A stretch of DNA of 64,000 nucleotides from Escherichia coli (lineage in GTDB: Bacteria; Pseudomonadota; Gammaproteobacteria; Enterobacterales; Enterobacteriaceae): NCBI RefSeq assembly GCF_029227855.1, contig NZ_CP074356.1. The stretch is one strand, 5' to 3'. The notes beneath the pieces are model-generated. The model saw only the letters and a list, made by a program, of their open reading frames with translations. It searched no databases and had not been told where the DNA came from. Within the stretch, counting starts at the first letter, position 1; the number at the start of each line of letters is the position of its first letter. This document shows, one piece after another, positions 5,032 to 24,699 of the stretch. A program made the translations under genes and the position numbers.

Positions 5032-5889
5032 TCAGGCTACCGCTTTTTCAGTTTGTTGCGCTTTCAGCCAGGCGATCTCTTCTGCCCAGATATCCGGGTT
5101 GATGGTTTCAAGGATCAGCGGAATGCCGTCGAAACGGTCGTCCTGCATGATCCAGCGGAACGCATCATGACCGATATTGCCTTCACCGAGGCTATGATGG
5201 CGGTCAACGCGGCTGCCAAAGGTGCTTTTCGCATCGTTAAGGTGCATCCCGCGCAGATACTTAAAGCCGACAATACGGGCAAAATCCGCGAACGTTTTCT
5301 CGCATTCGGCTGGAGTACGCAAATCATACCCGGCAGCAAAAGCATGGCAGGTATCAATGCAGACGCCGACGCGGGATTTATCTTCCACGCCGTCGATAAT
5401 CGCCGCGAGATGTTCGAATTTAAACCCTAAGTTACTGCCCTGACCGGCGGTGTTTTCAATCACCGCTGTCACACCTTGAGTTTTATCCAGCGCAATGTTG
5501 ATGGATTCGGCAATACGCGCAAGGCAATCCTCTTCTGAAATCTGCATCAGATGGCTGCCAGGGTGGAAGTTGAGCAAAGAAAGCCCCAGCTGTTCGCAAC
5601 GCTGCATTTCATCTATAAACGCATCGCGCGATTTTTCCAGAGCTTCAGCGACCGGATGTCCGAGGTTAATCAGATAACTGTCGTGAGGAAGAATTTGCGC
5701 CGATGTGTAGTGATATTTTTCACAGGCGGCTTTGAATTCATCAATGGTTTGCGTCGTGAGCGGTGCGGCACGCCACTGACGTTGGTTTTTGGTGAACAAG
5801 GCAAACGCGGTTGCGTCGATTTCGGCGGCGCGAATTGCGGCATTTGCCAGACCGCCAGCAGCACTAACGTGCGCTCCAATGTATTTCAT
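5032..5889 (-). CDS. nfo: Endonuclease IV (AP endonuclease)
   Basis: 285 aa; xylose-isomerase-like TIM barrel fold with His/Asp/Glu metal ligands. Confidence 0.95.
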
Positions 5890-9760: not shown

Positions 9761-9790
9761 GATTGATAATTGTTATCGTTTGCATTATCG
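9761..9790 (+). promoter_or_regulatory. Fur box in cirA promoter region
   Basis: gattgataattgttatcgtttgcattatcg matches GATAATGATAATCATTATC-type iron box upstream of the siderophore receptor gene. Confidence 0.6.
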
Positions 9791-9958: not shown

Positions 9959-11938
9959 ATGTTTAGGTTGAACCCTTTCGTACGGGTCGGGCTGTGTTTG
10001 TCCGCTATTTCTTGTGCATGGCCTGTGTTAGCGGTCGATGATGATGGCGAAACGATGGTTGTCACTGCATCTTCCGTTGAGCAAAACCTTAAAGATGCAC
10101 CCGCCAGTATCAGCGTCATTACCCAGGAAGACCTGCAGCGAAAACCGGTACAGAATCTGAAGGATGTCCTCAAAGAAGTGCCTGGCGTACAACTGACGAA
10201 CGAAGGGGATAACCGTAAGGGCGTTAGTATTCGTGGTCTGGACAGCAGCTACACCCTGATTCTCGTCGACGGTAAACGCGTTAACTCCCGCAATGCCGTC
10301 TTCCGCCACAATGATTTCGATCTGAACTGGATCCCGGTCGATTCCATCGAACGTATTGAAGTGGTCCGTGGCCCGATGTCGTCGCTGTACGGTTCCGATG
10401 CGCTCGGCGGTGTAGTGAATATCATCACCAAAAAAATCGGTCAGAAATGGTCGGGTACCGTTACCGTCGATACCACCATTCAGGAACATCGCGATCGCGG
10501 TGATACCTATAACGGTCAGTTCTTTACCAGCGGACCATTAATTGACGGCGTGCTGGGAATGAAAGCTTACGGCAGCCTGGCAAAACGTGAAAAGGATGAC
10601 CCGCAAAACTCAACGACCACCGATACCGGAGAAACGCCGCGTATTGAAGGTTTCTCCAGCCGCGACGGCAATGTGGAATTTGCCTGGACACCGAATCAAA
10701 ATCACGATTTTACTGCCGGATACGGTTTCGACCGTCAGGATCGTGATTCCGACTCGCTGGACAAAAACCGCCTGGAACGCCAGAACTACTCCGTCAGCCA
10801 TAATGGTCGTTGGGATTACGGCACCAGCGAACTGAAATACTACGGTGAGAAAGTCGAGAACAAAAACCCTGGCAACAGCAGCCCGATAACTTCCGAAAGC
10901 AATACGGTCGACGGCAAATACACGTTGCCGCTGACGGCGATTAATCAGTTTCTCACGGTTGGCGGTGAATGGCGTCACGACAAACTTAGCGATGCGGTGA
11001 ACCTGACCGGGGGAACCAGCTCCAAAACATCTGCCAGCCAGTACGCGCTATTTGTTGAAGATGAATGGCGGATCTTCGAGCCGCTGGCGCTGACGACCGG
11101 CGTGCGTATGGACGATCACGAAACCTACGGTGAACACTGGAGTCCGCGTGCCTACCTGGTTTATAACGCCACCGACACCGTAACGGTGAAAGGGGGCTGG
11201 GCGACGGCATTTAAAGCACCTTCTCTGTTGCAACTTAGCCCTGACTGGACGAGCAATTCCTGCCGTGGCGCATGTAAGATTGTGGGTAGCCCGGATCTGA
11301 AACCAGAAACCAGCGAAAGTTGGGAACTGGGGCTTTACTACATGGGCGAAGAAGGCTGGCTGGAAGGGGTGGAATCCAGCGTGACCGTTTTCCGTAACGA
11401 TGTGAAAGATCGTATCAGCATCAGCCGTACGTCTGACGTCAACGCTGCACCGGGCTACCAAAACTTTGTTGGTTTTACAGCGAACGGTGTGCCGGTATTT
11501 AGCTACTACAACGTTAACAAAGCTCGTATTCAGGGCGTGGAAACCGAACTGAAAATTCCGTTCAACGATGAATGGAAACTGTCACTCAACTACACCTACA
11601 ACGATGGTCGTGATGTCAGCAACGGCGAAAATAAACCTTTATCCGATCTGCCGTTCCATACCGCTAACGGTACGCTGGACTGGAAACCGCTGGCGCTGGA
11701 AGACTGGTCATTCTATGTTTCTGGTCACTATACCGGGCAGAAACGCGCCGACAGCGCGACGGCTAAAACACCGGGCGGTTATACCATCTGGAATACCGGT
11801 GCGGCCTGGCAGGTGACTAAAGACGTCAAACTGCGCGCAGGCGTGCTGAACCTTGGCGACAAGGATCTCAGTCGTGACGACTACAGCTATAACGAAGACG
11901 GACGTCGTTACTTTATGGCAGTGGATTATCGCTTCTGA
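9959..11938 (+). CDS. cirA: TonB-dependent catecholate siderophore / colicin I receptor CirA
   Basis: 659 aa; signal peptide, TonB box, C-terminal beta-barrel ending in aromatic residue. Confidence 0.9.
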
Positions 11939-14905: not shown

Positions 14906-15046
14906 CGATCTGGATCACATTCGTTAACAAAACGGCTGTAACCGTTTCCATTGCTGTGACTCGATTCACGAAGTCCTGTATTCAGTGCTGACAAAATAGC
15001 CGCCAGCAAGCAGTCATTTACTGCAATCTCATAACAGGTAGTGAAT

Positions 15047-16087
15047 ATGATCACCATTCGTGATGTAGCGCGTCAGGCTGGCGTCTCTGTGGCAACGGTT
15101 TCCCGAGTGCTCAATAACAGTACGCTGGTCAGTGCCGACACGCGTGAAGCAGTAATGAAAGCCGTTAGTGAGCTGGATTATCGACCAAATGCCAATGCCC
15201 AGGCGCTGGCAACTCAGGTTAGCGACACCATTGGCGTGGTGGTGATGGACGTTTCTGATGCGTTTTTCGGCGCGCTGGTAAAAGCGGTGGATCTGGTCGC
15301 CCAGCAGCATCAGAAATACGTGCTAATCGGCAATAGCTATCATGAAGCGGAAAAAGAGCGTCACGCCATTGAGGTGTTAATTCGCCAGCGTTGTAATGCA
15401 TTGATTGTTCACTCAAAAGCATTGAGTGACGATGAGCTGGCACAATTTATGGATAACATTCCCGGTATGGTATTAATCAACCGCGTTGTGCCGGGGTACG
15501 CCCATCGTTGCGTTTGCCTGGATAATCTCAGCGGTGCCCGAATGGCGACGCGCATGTTGCTGAATAACGGTCATCAACGTATTGGTTATCTTTCTTCCAG
15601 TCACGGCATTGAAGATGACGCCATGCGTAAAGCAGGCTGGATGAGTGCGTTGAAAGAGCAGGATATTATTCCGCCGGAAAGCTGGATTGGCACTGGCACG
15701 CCGGACATGCCGGGTGGTGAGGCGGCGATGGTTGAACTGCTGGGGCGCAATCTACAACTTACCGCTGTATTTGCTTATAACGACAATATGGCCGCTGGCG
15801 CACTGACAGCATTAAAAGATAATGGCATTGCGATTCCGTTACATCTCTCCATCATCGGTTTCGATGATATTCCCATCGCCCGTTACACCGACCCGCAATT
15901 AACGACCGTACGTTATCCCATTGCTTCAATGGCGAAATTAGTCACCGAACTGGCCTTGCAGGGGGCAGCAGGCAATATTGATCCTCGTGCCAGCCACTGT
16001 TTTATGCCGACGTTAGTGCGTCGCCATTCTGTCGCAACACGCCAGAATGCGGCGGCGATCACTAACTCAACAAATCTGGCGATGTAA
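15047..16087 (+). CDS. galS: LacI-family repressor GalS (mgl/gal isorepressor)
   Basis: ORF 15041..16087; start trimmed to [23 protein letters not shown] (LacI HTH). Confidence 0.9.
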
Positions 16088-16099: not shown

Positions 16100-16115
16100 T
16101 GTGAGTGATTTCACA
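16100..16115. promoter_or_regulatory. CRP binding site in galS-mglB intergenic region
   Basis: tgtgagtgatttcaca = TGTGA-N6-TCACA perfect half-sites. Confidence 0.6.
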
Positions 16116-16366: not shown

Positions 16367-17365
16367 ATGAATAAGAAGGTGTTAACCCTATCTGCTGTGA
16401 TGGCCAGCATGTTATTCGGTGCCGCTGCACACGCTGCTGATACTCGCATTGGTGTAACAATCTATAAGTACGACGATAACTTTATGTCTGTGGTGCGCAA
16501 GGCTATTGAGCAAGATGCGAAAGCCGCGCCAGATGTTCAGCTGCTGATGAATGATTCTCAGAATGACCAGTCCAAGCAGAACGATCAGATCGACGTATTG
16601 CTGGCGAAAGGGGTGAAGGCACTGGCAATCAACCTGGTTGACCCGGCAGCTGCGGGTACGGTGATTGAGAAAGCGCGTGGGCAAAACGTGCCGGTGGTTT
16701 TCTTTAACAAAGAACCGTCTCGTAAGGCGCTGGATAGCTACGACAAAGCCTACTACGTTGGCACTGACTCCAAAGAGTCCGGCATTATTCAGGGCGATTT
16801 GATTGCTAAACACTGGGCGGCGAATCAGGGGTGGGATCTGAACAAAGACGGTCAGATTCAGTTCGTACTGCTGAAAGGTGAGCCGGGCCATCCGGATGCA
16901 GAAGCACGTACCACTTACGTGATTAAAGAATTGAACGACAAAGGCATCAAAACTGAACAGTTACAGTTAGATACCGCTATGTGGGATACCGCTCAGGCGA
17001 AAGATAAGATGGACGCCTGGCTGTCTGGCCCGAACGCCAACAAAATCGAAGTGGTTATCGCCAACAACGATGCGATGGCAATGGGCGCGGTAGAAGCACT
17101 GAAAGCACACAACAAGTCCAGCATTCCGGTGTTTGGCGTCGATGCGCTGCCAGAAGCGCTGGCGCTGGTGAAATCCGGTGCACTGGCGGGCACCGTACTG
17201 AACGATGCTAACAACCAGGCGAAAGCGACCTTTGATTTGGCGAAAAACCTGGCCGATGGCAAAGGTGCGGCTGATGGCACCAACTGGAAAATCGACAACA
17301 AAGTGGTCCGCGTACCTTATGTTGGCGTAGATAAAGACAACCTGGCTGAATTCAGCAAGAAATAA
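16367..17365 (+). CDS. mglB: Periplasmic galactose/glucose-binding protein
   Basis: 332 aa with signal peptide. Confidence 0.95.
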
Positions 17366-20042: not shown

Positions 20043-21278
20043 TTACAACGTTACCGGGTGTTCTTTCTCTCCCTTCTTAAACTTCACTTCCCCAAGATCA
20101 ATACAACCCACCGGGCAGACGTGACCGCAAAGCAGACAACCGACGCATTTCTCGGTATTACAATGCGGCGTGCGGGTTTTCTCGCTCCATTCCATCGCCT
20201 GGTGACCGCCGTCGTAACAGGAAATATAACAGCGTCCACAGCCAACACATTTATCGAGATTGATATGGGGATAGACAATATAACTGCGGTCTAAATCTTC
20301 CGCCGGGACAATATTGTTATTCGCCAGACCTACCATCTCCTGCAACGAATCAAATCCCTGATCGGCGAGATAATGCGATAACCCGCTCGCCATATCTTCT
20401 ACGATGCGATAGCCGTACTGCATAATGCCGGTGGTCACCTGTAACGTTGCTGCGCCGAGCAATAAAAACTCCGCCGCATCCTCCCAGGTTTCAATGCCGC
20501 CGATACCGCTGATCGGGAAATCGCGCAGCTCTGGATGGGTACGCATTTGCTGAATGAAGCGCAGGGCGATCGGTTTTACCGCTTTACCGGAATATCCGGA
20601 AATACTCGATTTACCGTTAACGATCGGCATACCGATTTTCTGATTAAGATCGATATTGGTGATGGATTTAACGGTGTTAATCGCCGCAATGCCATCTGCG
20701 CCGCCGCGCTTCGCCGCCAGCGCCACTTCGCACATATCACCGATATTCGGCGTCATCTTCGCCAGCATCGGCAGCGTGGAACCCCGTTTCACTGCCCGAC
20801 AATATTTTTCTACCAGCTCCGGGCTTTGCCCGACATCGCTACCCATCGCATGAGAAGTCATTTGCGGACAGGAGAAATTACACTCGATCATATCCGCGCC
20901 AGCTTCTTGCACCAGGCGCGCCAGCTCCTCCCATTGCTGCTCATTTTCCCCCATGATCGAAGCGATCAATACTTTGTCCGGGTAATCTTCCTTCAGCCGA
21001 CGCAGGGCGGCCAGATTCTCTTCCAACGGATGTTCAGCAATCTGCTCCATATTTTTGAAGCCGATAAAACCGGTATCTTCTTTCACCAGATGATCAAAAC
21101 GCGGCGAGACTTCGTTGGCGATAAAAAAGCCGATCGTTTTAAACACCACGCCGCCCCAACCTGTGTCGTAGGCTTTGGCACACATCTCATAGCAGTTGCC
21201 TACAGGCGAAGAAGAGAGGCAGAACGGATTGGGAAACTTCACGCCGCAAAAAGTAATCGAAAGATCTTTCGTTAACAT
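20043..21278 (-). CDS. preA: NAD-dependent dihydropyrimidine dehydrogenase subunit PreA
   Basis: ORF 20043..21284 trimmed to [10 protein letters not shown]..; C-terminal ferredoxin-type Cys clusters. Confidence 0.9.
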
Positions 21279-22510
21279 GAGCAAGCTCCCTCTAAATAGT
21301 GATGAATCGCCTCGGCGGCTTCTTTCCCGGTTTTCACGGCATAGACCACGGTTTTGTCACCCTCAACAATATCGCCAGCAGCAAAGACTTGCGGATCGCG
21401 GGTCTGGTAATTTTGTGTATTGATGGTGTTACGCTGCGGCTCTAACTCCGCAAAGGCATCCAGTCTGGCATGCTGACCGACGGCGAGAATAATTTTATCT
21501 GCCGTCATCGTCAGTTCGCCCGGTAACCGTACATGCTTAAACGTGACTTTATTGCCTTCCACGGCTACTGGCGTAAATCCATCGATGATCGAAACGCCCA
21601 GCTCCCGGGCGCTGGCAAACTCTTTTTCGCTTGCCGGAAACTCATCTAACTCTTCACGCGCTACGCAAGTTACCGCCTGACAGCCGAGAACTTTCAGCGT
21701 GCTGGCTACGTCCATCGCGACATCACCGCCGCCGATAATTAATGCGCTTTGTGGAATGCTGATATCGCCTTGCGCCTGTCGTGCACGTTGCAAGAAGTCG
21801 ACGGCAATCTCAACGTCGCTATGCTCAAACAGTGGTAGCCCCGAACCGCTCGATAACCCCACAGTGACCAGTACCGCGCGGTTTTCCGCTTTCAGCTGCT
21901 CCAGGGTGAGTGTGTTACCGATTTCGTTATTGCATTTAATGGTCACGCCCATTTTTTCGATACGGGCGATTTCTGCATCCAGTACTGATTGCGGTAACCG
22001 GAATTGCGGAATGCCGTTACGCAACCAGCCACCGGGTTGTGCTTCTTTCTCATAGATCGTGACGTCATAACCCTGGTTTGTCAGTGTCACACTGGCCTGC
22101 AATCCGGCAGGACCCGCGCCAATAATGGCGACTTTGCCGAGCGTTTTAGTACCGGGCTGATAAATTTCCATCCCAGTTTGTTGTTCAAAATCAGTAACAA
22201 AACGCTGTAAGCGACCGATATCAATGGGAGTATCAACACCGGCACGGGTACAACCGCTTTGGCATAATTTCTCCGTCGGGCACACTCTGGCACAAACGGC
22301 ACCGAGGGCATTATTTTCGCGAATTGTCTCGGCAGCGCCTTTAAAATTACGAAAGTAGATTGAGCGAATAAATTTCCCCGGATCGGTCTGTGCCGGGCAA
22401 GCCTGACTACAGGGAGCGTCATGACATAATAAGCAGCGAGAGGCTTCTTTAATCGCCAGTAAAGGCGTAAAAGCCGGAGTGAGTTCATCCAGATAATTTT
22501 GTTGCGGCAT
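21272..22510 (-). CDS. preT: NAD-dependent dihydropyrimidine dehydrogenase subunit PreT
   Basis: 412 aa; Fe-S Cys motifs and GAGPAG nucleotide-binding motif; overlaps preA start. Confidence 0.9.
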
Positions 22511-22602
22511 GTGATCTTCCTTAATGCTATGAGTAATTAAGGCGAACGCTAAATAGATATTGCGTGCTGATATTAAGGCTATGCGCGTGGGGAAATTTAA
22601 AC

Positions 22603-22618
22603 TGTGAAAGGATTCACA
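22603..22618. promoter_or_regulatory. CRP-like site upstream of preT
   Basis: tgtgaaaggattcaca = TGTGA-N6-TCACA, about 95 bp upstream of the preT start. Confidence 0.45.
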
Positions 22619-22703
22619 AATAGCTGCGGTTCAGAATGTTATATCCGCAGCTTATTAAGTGAAGTAATAATTATTCTCAATAATTAACAGAAAAGAGAAA
22701 ATA

Positions 22704-24699
<1,996 letters not shown>

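What the first reader, a model, noticed from the sequence alone, without database searches (positions are those of the whole stretch)
22603..22618. Perfect CRP consensus upstream of preT
tgtgaaaggattcaca (TGTGA-N6-TCACA) lies about 95 bp upstream of the preTA start. This suggests cAMP-CRP control of the dihydropyrimidine dehydrogenase operon, which I do not recall as established.
Basis: seen in the sequence. Interest (0 to 1): 0.3.

Follow-up and report, generated by a model that had tools for sequence, protein, structure and literature searches.

The report
Known CRP site activating preTA promoter
The perfect CRP-binding palindrome upstream of the E. coli preTA (dihydropyrimidine dehydrogenase) operon is real and deeply conserved, but cAMP-CRP activation of this operon is already recorded in RegulonDB, so the finding is ordinary.

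Summary
TGTGAAAGGATTCACA lies at 22603-22618, 92 nt upstream of the preT ATG (22510, minus strand), in the yeiS-preT intergenic region of an E. coli chromosome. It is one of two perfect TGTGA-N6-TCACA matches in the window (0.06 expected). The other is the known mglB CRP site.

The interpretation, cAMP-CRP control of preTA, is supported but not new. Shimada et al. 2011 (PMC3105977) list yeiT (= preT) among the CRP targets already in RegulonDB (yeiTA, activator, -57.5). They also recovered this site by cAMP-dependent genomic SELEX.

New here:
- Both half-sites are invariant in 27 preT upstream regions from eight taxon groups, including Escherichia, Citrobacter, Salmonella and Kluyvera.
- An exact copy of the 16-mer is present in at least 5405 of 5426 complete E. 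coli genomes.
- The box is followed by 21 nt (26 of 27) of divergent sequence, then a near-invariant TAGCCT.

This is the geometry of a class II CRP promoter (CRP at -41.5, -10 at -12 to -7). It disagrees with RegulonDB's -57.5, which matches a 5'-RACE start site in a poorly conserved stretch. I infer class II at about 0.6; it needs start-site mapping under CRP-active conditions.

Novelty: already known. Interest: low.

The parts
22603..22618 (-). CRP core site, TGTGAATCCTTTCACA on the preT strand (palindromic half-sites; centre 22610.5). The 22-bp extended site is 22600-22621.
   Evidence: sequence; 2 matches against 0.06 expected; half-sites invariant in 27 orthologous upstream regions; exact 16-mer in at least 5405 of 5426 E. 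coli genomes. RegulonDB activator site and SELEX-bound (PMC3105977).
22582..22602 (-). 21-nt stretch between the CRP box and the -10-like hexamer. Its length is fixed and its sequence diverges.
   Evidence: 26 of 27 sequences have exactly 21 nt (one Citrobacter has 20). Mean information is 1.00 bit per column, against 2.00 for the half-sites.
22576..22581 (-). TAGCCT, the inferred -10 hexamer of a class II CRP-dependent preTA promoter (-12 to -7 if CRP is at -41.5).
   Evidence: TAGCCT in 26 of 27 sequences (25 at this offset; one Citrobacter has it 1 nt closer to the box) and TAGGCT in Salmonella; the only -10-like hexamer at a conserved offset in all 8 taxon groups. Its function as a -10 element is inferred, not shown.
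22568..22569 (-). Predicted transcription start of the class II promoter (C22569 or A22568, giving CRP at -41.5 or -42.5).
   Evidence: Inferred from the geometry. No start-site data support it yet.
22554..22557 (-). Window positions equivalent to the K-12 start sites on record: the 5'-RACE start at -47 from the ATG (Mendoza-Vargas 2009) and the start implied by RegulonDB's -57.5 (-44 from the ATG).
   Evidence: PMC2760140 Table S1: b2146, -47, Tttactaaacgctcgccttaa. (-57.5). (alignment of K-12 with the window). This stretch is polymorphic within E. coli and is where ERIC elements insert.
21272..22510 (-). preT (yeiT), first gene of the regulated operon.
20043..21284 (-). preA (yeiA), second gene of the operon; it overlaps the end of preT.
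22622..22652 (-). Inverted repeat AGCTGCGG-N15-CCGCAGCT, ending 3 nt upstream of the CRP box. It is probably the sanA-yeiS terminator hairpin, which would leave preTA its own promoter.
   Evidence: RNA fold -19.5 kcal/mol, z = -5.0. (E. albertii has the compensatory pair AGCTGTGG/CCACAGCT); the simple terminator scan did not call it (15-nt loop, weak T tract).
22665..22679 (.). Fur-box-like 7-1-7 palindrome (TGAGAATAATTATTA on the preT strand), about 60 nt upstream of the CRP centre.
   Evidence: 2 mismatches; one of 2 matches in the window against 0.24 expected. (block conserved in Escherichia and Citrobacter). (Beauchene 2015, PMC4676285: anaerobic Fur ChIP-seq peak at the preT promoter and Fur-dependent activation). 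That this box is the site Fur binds is my inference.

Best explanation
This is a genuine high-affinity cAMP-CRP operator that activates the preTA operon's own promoter, so dihydropyrimidine dehydrogenase is made when glucose is scarce, like the neighbouring nucleoside-catabolism gene cdd. That much is already on record in RegulonDB. My added inference concerns the mechanism. The conserved anatomy is a class II arrangement: CRP is centred 41.5 bp (or 42.5) upstream of a start at about 22569/22568, takes the place of a -35 element, and is followed after exactly 21 nt by the weak -10 hexamer TAGCCT. CRP would then recruit and activate RNA polymerase by direct contact, as at mglB or galP1. Shown or documented: the site, its rarity, its conservation, in-vitro cAMP-CRP binding and the RegulonDB annotation as activator. 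Inferred: TAGCCT is the -10 element, the start lies at about 22569, and activation is class II. The confidence of 0.6 is for the whole statement including class II. That the site is a functional CRP activator site of preTA, whatever the geometry, I put at about 0.9.
For: - Perfect core; 2 matches in the window against 0.06 expected.
- RegulonDB lists yeiTA as CRP-activated, and cAMP-dependent genomic SELEX recovered the site TGTGAAAAGATTCACA between yeiS and yeiTA (PMC3105977).
- All 10 half-site positions are invariant in 27 preT upstream regions from eight taxon groups: Escherichia, the Citrobacter freundii group, C. amalonaticus, Pseudocitrobacter, Salmonella, Kluyvera, [Enterobacter] lignolyticus and a record labelled Aeromonas finlandensis. 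The spacer and flanks diverge.
- At least 5405 of 5426 E. coli genomes carry an exact copy of one of two 16-mer alleles.
- The box-21 nt-TAGCCT module keeps its spacing in 26 of 27 sequences although the 21 nt diverge. It accompanies preTA even where the upstream gene differs (L034).
- TAGCCT is the only -10-like hexamer at a conserved offset in all groups. That offset (29.5 nt from the CRP centre to the first base) is the class II distance.
- In proteomic studies PreT rises together with Mal, Tdc, Glp and PsuG proteins, which I recognise as classical CRP-regulon members. This is circumstantial.
Against: - The only experimental start site I could find (5'-RACE, K-12, -47 from the ATG) and RegulonDB's -57.5 put CRP at -54.5 to -57.5, not -41.5.
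- No start-site dataset I could read shows a start at the predicted class II position. Kim 2012 has only a 2-read start inside yeiS, and the held Cappable-seq supplement has no entry matching the preT upstream coordinates (2,233,900-2,234,099) or the gene names.
- TAGCCT matches TATAAT at only 3 of 6 positions. Its invariant middle GCC is more conservation than a -10 element needs, so it could belong to something else.
- I could not read the primary paper behind the RegulonDB 'activator' call, so in-vivo CRP dependence is taken second-hand.
Confidence: 0.6

Rival explanations
1. CRP activates preTA from the start site on record (K-12 -44 to -47 from the ATG; window 22554-22557). The AT-rich -10 would be K-12 TACATT or the window's CAATAT, and CRP would sit upstream at about -54.5 to -60.5, a class I-like arrangement as annotated in RegulonDB (-57.5).
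For: - A start site was mapped by 5'-RACE at -47 (PMC2760140 Table S1).
- RegulonDB gives the location as -57.5.
- In the window, CAATAT (22562-22557) would place CRP at about -60.5, close to the class I optimum of -61.5 (my count).
Against: - -54.5 and -57.5 are off the helical phase at which CRP is known to activate (-61.5, -72.5, ...; established knowledge of spacing dependence).
- This stretch is the least conserved part of the promoter. It is polymorphic with an indel within E. coli, has length changes between genera, and has no -10-like hexamer at a shared offset outside Escherichia and Citrobacter.
- This model leaves the invariant TAGCCT at fixed spacing unexplained.
- I did not check whether that 5'-RACE protocol separates primary from processed 5' ends.
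Confidence: 0.28
2. CRP binds here but does not regulate preTA. It would be a structural or 'chromosome-shaping' site, or would act on the upstream sanA-yeiS unit, for example as a roadblock next to its terminator.
For: - Shimada 2011 notes that some RegulonDB CRP targets were predicted from the CRP-box sequence alone, without experimental evidence.
- In Escherichia the box starts 3 nt after the yeiS-proximal hairpin.
Against: - The box keeps a fixed distance to TAGCCT, not to the hairpin. In Citrobacter the hairpin has a different sequence and lies further away.
- The module travels with preTA when yeiS is absent (L034).
- RegulonDB records activation.
Confidence: 0.05
3. CRP drives a divergent or antisense promoter on the window's + strand, reading back into yeiS. 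A -10-like TTATAT/TATATC at 22639-22645 lies at about the class II distance on the other side.
For: The palindromic site is symmetric, and the + strand has TATATC at 22640-22645, 29.5 nt from the centre (my count).
Against: - The hexamer lies in the loop of the Escherichia hairpin. It differs in K-12 (TGATAT/GATATC) and is absent in Citrobacter and other genera.
- No gene lies in that direction to be served.
Confidence: 0.03
4. A chance palindrome with no function.
For: None beyond the short length of the motif (10 specified bases).
Against: - 0.06 expected per window.
- Invariant across genera while neighbouring bases diverge.
- Bound by cAMP-CRP in vitro (PMC3105977).
Confidence: 0.01

Closest known systems
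RegulonDB entry 'yeiTA, CRP activator, -57.5' (site TGTGAATCTTTTCACA in K-12), as reproduced in Shimada et al. 2011, PLoS One 6:e20081, Table S4
   Same: It is the same site at the same locus. The window's strain differs by one spacer base (TCC against TCT), and the window's allele is the commoner one in E. coli (3943 against 1462 genomes).
   Different: Only the assigned position. Conservation of the box-21 nt-TAGCCT module points to -41.5 or -42.5 rather than -57.5.
mglBAC promoter CRP site (class II, -41.5), 6.5 kb away in the same window at 16100-16115
   Same: A perfect TGTGA-N6-TCACA core. RegulonDB lists it as an activator at -41.5, the geometry I infer for preTA.
   Different: I have not established a class II start site for preTA. 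The mglB site sits in the intergenic region downstream of galS and upstream of mglB.
cdd promoter (CRP/CytR-regulated nucleoside catabolism), about 2 kb upstream in the same gene cluster
   Same: A pyrimidine-salvage and catabolism gene under CRP, with sites at -42.5 and -92.5 (RegulonDB list). This gives the physiological logic for placing preTA under catabolite control.
   Different: cdd has tandem imperfect CRP sites that cooperate with CytR. The preT region has a single perfect site. I saw no second CRP box, and I did not search for CytR sites.
Fur-dependent activation of preTA under anaerobiosis (Beauchene et al. 2015, mBio 6:e01947-15)
   Same: The same promoter region. A Fur-like box at 22665-22679 lies about 60 nt upstream of the CRP centre.
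   Different: A different regulator and a different signal (iron and O2). Whether it interacts with CRP is unknown.

Membership tests
CRP (cAMP receptor protein) operator / CRP regulon member | Palindromic core TGTGA-N6-TCACA within a 22-bp site | tested here: met
   10 of 10 core positions match. Among the RegulonDB sites shown, only azuC also has a perfect core.
CRP (cAMP receptor protein) operator / CRP regulon member | Lies in a promoter region upstream of the regulated gene, not inside a gene | tested here: met
   It lies in the 193-nt yeiS-preT intergenic region, both genes run in the same direction, and it is 92 nt from the preT ATG.
CRP (cAMP receptor protein) operator / CRP regulon member | Purifying selection on the half-sites relative to the flanks | tested here: met
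   Half-sites 2.00 bits per column; spacer 1.43; flanks 0.7-1.0, over 26 distinct sequences from 8 taxon groups. Exact 16-mer in at least 99.6% of E. coli genomes.
CRP (cAMP receptor protein) operator / CRP regulon member | cAMP-dependent CRP binding to the DNA | not testable with these tools
   From the literature: recovered by genomic SELEX with cAMP-CRP, and no peaks appeared without cAMP (PMC3105977). I found no in-vivo ChIP evidence. The two supplementary files held for the Crp ChIP-exo paper do not name preT, yeiT or b2146 and have no entry at the site's coordinates.
CRP (cAMP receptor protein) operator / CRP regulon member | crp- and cAMP-dependent expression of the target operon | not testable with these tools
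   RegulonDB mode is 'activator'. Co-induction with Mal, Tdc and Glp proteins is only circumstantial.
Class II CRP-dependent promoter | CRP centred at -41.5 (plus or minus 1) from the transcription start, overlapping the -35 position | tested here: inconclusive
   The geometry to the conserved -10-like TAGCCT fits exactly (29.5 nt from centre to first base). The only mapped start (-47 from the ATG) gives -54.5, and no data show a start at the predicted position.
Class II CRP-dependent promoter | A recognisable -10 element and no good -35 hexamer | tested here: met
   TAGCCT keeps T-12, A-11 and T-7. The consensus promoter scan finds no promoter on the preT strand in 22400-22800, as expected for an activator-dependent promoter.
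Class I CRP-dependent promoter | CRP centred near -61.5, -72.5, -82.5 or -92.5 upstream of a complete core promoter | tested here: inconclusive
   The recorded positions, -54.5 and -57.5, are off-phase. In the window, CAATAT would give about -60.5, but that hexamer is not conserved.

The most novel reading that the evidence does not exclude
The CRP-dependent preTA promoter is a so-far unannotated class II promoter (CRP at -41.5 or -42.5, -10 TAGCCT, start about 59-60 nt before the ATG). It would be conserved as a box-21 nt-TAGCCT module across Enterobacteriaceae. RegulonDB's -57.5 would then refer to a different, strain-variable start or to a processed 5' end. If so, the database position should be corrected, and catabolite control of bacterial 5-fluorouracil inactivation can be engineered or predicted from this module.
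Probability: 0.6. Interest if true: 0.2.

Novelty: already known. Interest (0 to 1): 0.1.

Why it matters
PreTA reduces uracil and thymine, and it also inactivates the anticancer drug 5-fluorouracil in gut bacteria (bioRxiv 10.1101/820084; PMC11185696). When the operon is expressed therefore has some practical interest. CRP control means expression should be low when glucose is available and higher on poorer carbon sources. Neither of those two preTA drug-metabolism papers mentions CRP, catabolite control or the promoter. The regulatory link itself has been in RegulonDB since at least 2011. What this analysis adds is small: evidence that the site is under strong selection across enteric genera, and a probable correction of the promoter geometry.

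Tried and rejected
- **Primary papers.** I tried to read the likely sources for CRP dependence, Zheng 2004 (NAR) and Grainger 2005 (PNAS), by DOI and by PMC id. They are not held.
- **Start-site datasets.**
  - Kim 2012 has only a 2-read start inside yeiS.
  - The held Cappable-seq supplement has nothing.
  - Thomason 2015 is not held.
  - Conway 2014 has no supplement held.
  - Only Mendoza-Vargas 2009 gave a start site.
- **Crp ChIP-exo.** The held supplement of Latif 2018 does not name preT or yeiT. It lists transcription units, not peaks.
- **Paper searches.** preT+preA+CRP and yeiA+CRP added nothing. One search using the prefix 'preTA' was wasted on 'pretargeting' papers.
- **Rfam.** A scan of 22400-22760 gave only a chance-level PrrF hit (E = 0.93), which I rejected.
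- **Consensus scan.** It finds no sigma-70 promoter on the preT strand and no canonical terminator.
- **Alternative -10 candidates.** In Escherichia, TAATAT (22575-22570) would put CRP at about -47.5, the wrong helical face, and it is not conserved in register in Citrobacter, so I rejected it. Reading TAGCCT as a -35 element would put CRP at about -64.5 with a variable and poor -10, so I rejected that too.
- **Fur consensus.** The 19-bp Fur consensus has no match at 3 or fewer mismatches. The 7-1-7 form matches with 2 mismatches.

Full report
**1. What is there**

The window is E. coli chromosome. A 401-nt query around the site matches 5424 of 5426 complete E. coli genomes, the best at 99.8%. 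The annotated neighbourhood in that record runs mglA, mglC, preA, preT, yeiS, sanA, cdd, with the last five on the minus strand of the window.

- preT is the ORF at 21272-22510 (-), preA is 20043-21284 (-) and yeiS is 22704-22943 (-).
- The + strand at 22603-22618 reads tgtgaaaggattcaca. On the preT strand this is TGTGAATCCTTTCACA, centred at 22610.5.
- Its proximal edge is 92 nt from the ATG.
- The exact pattern occurs twice in 64 kb, against 0.06 expected from shuffles.
- The second copy (16100-16115) is the mglB CRP site. Its flanks match the RegulonDB mglBAC entry letter for letter.
- With one mismatch allowed, the known galS and cdd promoter sites also appear.

**2. It is already known**

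- Shimada et al. 2011 (PMC3105977) list yeiT (the old name of preT) in their Table 1A. That table covers targets already in RegulonDB that were also recovered by cAMP-dependent genomic SELEX.
- Their Table S3 places the SELEX site between yeiS and yeiTA as TGTGAAAAGATTCACA.
[quoted passage not shown] It gives 'yeiTA, activator, -57.5, aaacgcagctattTGTGAATCTTTTCACAgtttaaattcaaa'.
- K-12 differs from the window by one spacer base.
Its hint of novelty is not.
- I could not read the primary papers most likely to hold the in-vivo evidence. That part rests on the database annotation as quoted by Shimada et al., who caution that some RegulonDB CRP targets were predicted from sequence alone.

**3. Conservation**

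I collected preT loci in two ways. One was a scan of one genome per species. The other used contigs encoding more distant PreT proteins, with cluster names taken.

- All 27 enterobacterial upstream regions contain a perfect TGTGA-N6-TCACA. They fall into eight taxon groups: Escherichia, the Citrobacter freundii group, C. amalonaticus, Pseudocitrobacter, mainstream Salmonella enterica, Kluyvera, [Enterobacter] lignolyticus and a record labelled Aeromonas finlandensis.
- The spacer varies among them (ATCCTT, ATCTTT, ATAGAT, ATGCTT, GCATTT, GTATTT, ATTCTT, AACCTT).
- Information content per column is as follows:

| Region | Bits per column |
|---|---|
| Half-sites | 2.00 |
| Spacer | 1.43 |
| Next 21 nt | 1.00 |
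| Flanks | 0.7-0.8 |

- Within E. coli, 3943 genomes carry the window's 16-mer and 1462 carry the K-12 16-mer. Every megablast seed of 28 nt within my 40-nt queries spans the whole site. So at least 5405 of 5426 genomes hold an exact copy.
- Loci without the box are two low-GC loci whose PreT is only 61-62% identical (L032, L033; I take them to be Firmicutes, organism not checked) and a variant Salmonella-labelled locus where preTA follows an autotransporter gene (L023).

**4. How it most likely works**

Directly after the box come exactly 21 nt of divergent sequence in 26 of 27 cases. One Citrobacter has 20.

- TAGCCT then follows in 26 of 27 sequences; Salmonella has TAGGCT.
- The distance from the CRP centre to the first base of that hexamer is 29.5 nt. 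This is the class II geometry: CRP at -41.5 and the -10 element at -12 to -7.
- A scan for -10-like hexamers (A at position 2, T at position 6, at least 3 of 6 matches) downstream of the box finds only this offset shared by all eight taxon groups.
- There is no -35-like element and no consensus promoter on this strand, as expected for an activator-dependent promoter.
- I therefore infer a class II CRP promoter starting at about 22569/22568. I put this at about 0.6.

The conflicting evidence is as follows.

- A directed 5'-RACE start in K-12 lies 47 nt before the ATG (PMC2760140 Table S1).
- RegulonDB's -57.5 implies a start 44 nt before the ATG.
- These put CRP at -54.5 to -57.5, which is off the helical phase at which CRP is known to activate.
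- That start lies in the most variable part of the region. The stretch is polymorphic with an indel within E. coli and changes length between genera. It is also the insertion point of ERIC elements in some Escherichia.
- It may be a second, CRP-independent promoter or a processed end, or the class II inference may be wrong.
- The start-site datasets I could read do not settle this.

**5. The rest of the intergenic region**

- Between yeiS and the box lies a Fur-like 7-1-7 palindrome at 22665-22679. This fits the published anaerobic Fur ChIP peak and Fur-dependent activation of PpreT (PMC4676285).
- Next is a GC-rich hairpin at 22622-22652 (-19.5 kcal/mol, z = -5). E. albertii has a compensatory change in it. 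It is probably the sanA-yeiS terminator.
- In the leader, CCTTAAT (22542-22536) can pair with ATTAAGG (22525-22519), which covers the Shine-Dalgarno sequence. Both arms are almost invariant across genera, so there is no covariation to test the pairing.
- Rfam has nothing here.

**6. Verdict**

- Observation: confirmed.
- Interpretation: supported.
- Novelty: none. This is a RegulonDB-listed, SELEX-bound CRP activator site under older gene names.
- The only increments are the strength of the conservation and a probable correction of the promoter class. That correction needs start-site mapping under CRP-active conditions.
- Interest is low.

Noticed in passing
window 22519-22542 (minus strand): The preT leader can form a 7-bp hairpin, CCUUAAU-N10-AUUAAGG, whose 3' arm covers the Shine-Dalgarno sequence (AAGGAAG, 22522-22516). 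Both arms are nearly invariant from Escherichia to Kluyvera and Salmonella although the sequence around them diverges. It may be an SD-sequestering element or a palindromic operator. No pair covaries, so the structure is untested.
   Followed up: partly
window 22665-22679: A Fur-box-like palindrome (2 mismatches to TGATAAT-N-ATTATCA) lies between the yeiS stop codon and the hairpin and is conserved in Escherichia and Citrobacter. It fits the published anaerobic Fur ChIP-seq peak and Fur-dependent activation of preTA (PMC4676285). The other match in the window (9764-9778) lies upstream of the 659-aa ORF at 9959-11938, probably cirA (not verified).
   Followed up: partly
window 22622-22652: The inverted repeat AGCTGCGG-N15-CCGCAGCT ends 3 nt before the CRP box. 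E. albertii has the compensatory variant AGCTGTGG/CCACAGCT. Citrobacter has a different, shorter hairpin further upstream. It is probably the sanA-yeiS terminator, but it has a 15-nt loop and a weak T tract, and the terminator scan did not call it.
   Followed up: partly
L004 (170 nt), L005 (130 nt), L007 (68 nt), inserted opposite window ~22551-22553; also E. coli hits H3 and H4: ERIC/IRU-like repeat elements (identified from memory of the ERIC consensus, not by a search) are inserted in the preT leader of some Escherichia strains and species. They lie downstream of the CRP box and TAGCCT and upstream of the conserved leader hairpin. The 5' UTR length is therefore polymorphic (box start to ATG 107-279 nt).
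   Followed up: partly
window 22554-22557 against 22568-22569: RegulonDB's position for this CRP site (-57.5) and the 5'-RACE start (-47 from the ATG in K-12) do not match the conserved box-21 nt-TAGCCT geometry, which implies -41.5.
   Followed up: partly
L023 (Salmonella-labelled assembly GCA_007258435.1) and L034 (record labelled Aeromonas finlandensis): A variant preTA copy (PreT 77% identical) lies downstream of a pertactin-type autotransporter gene and has no CRP box. In L034 the full CRP box-21 nt-TAGCCT module is present although the upstream gene is a divergent sulfatase rather than yeiS. This suggests the promoter module moves with the operon.
   Followed up: partly
window 16100-16115: The second perfect TGTGA-N6-TCACA in the window is the known mglBAC CRP site (RegulonDB -41.5), between galS (15041-16087) and mglB (16367-17365).
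   Followed up: yes
window 5709-5724: A one-mismatch CRP-like sequence, AGTGATATTTTTCACA, lies inside the nfo coding sequence. There is no reason to think it functional.
   Followed up: partly
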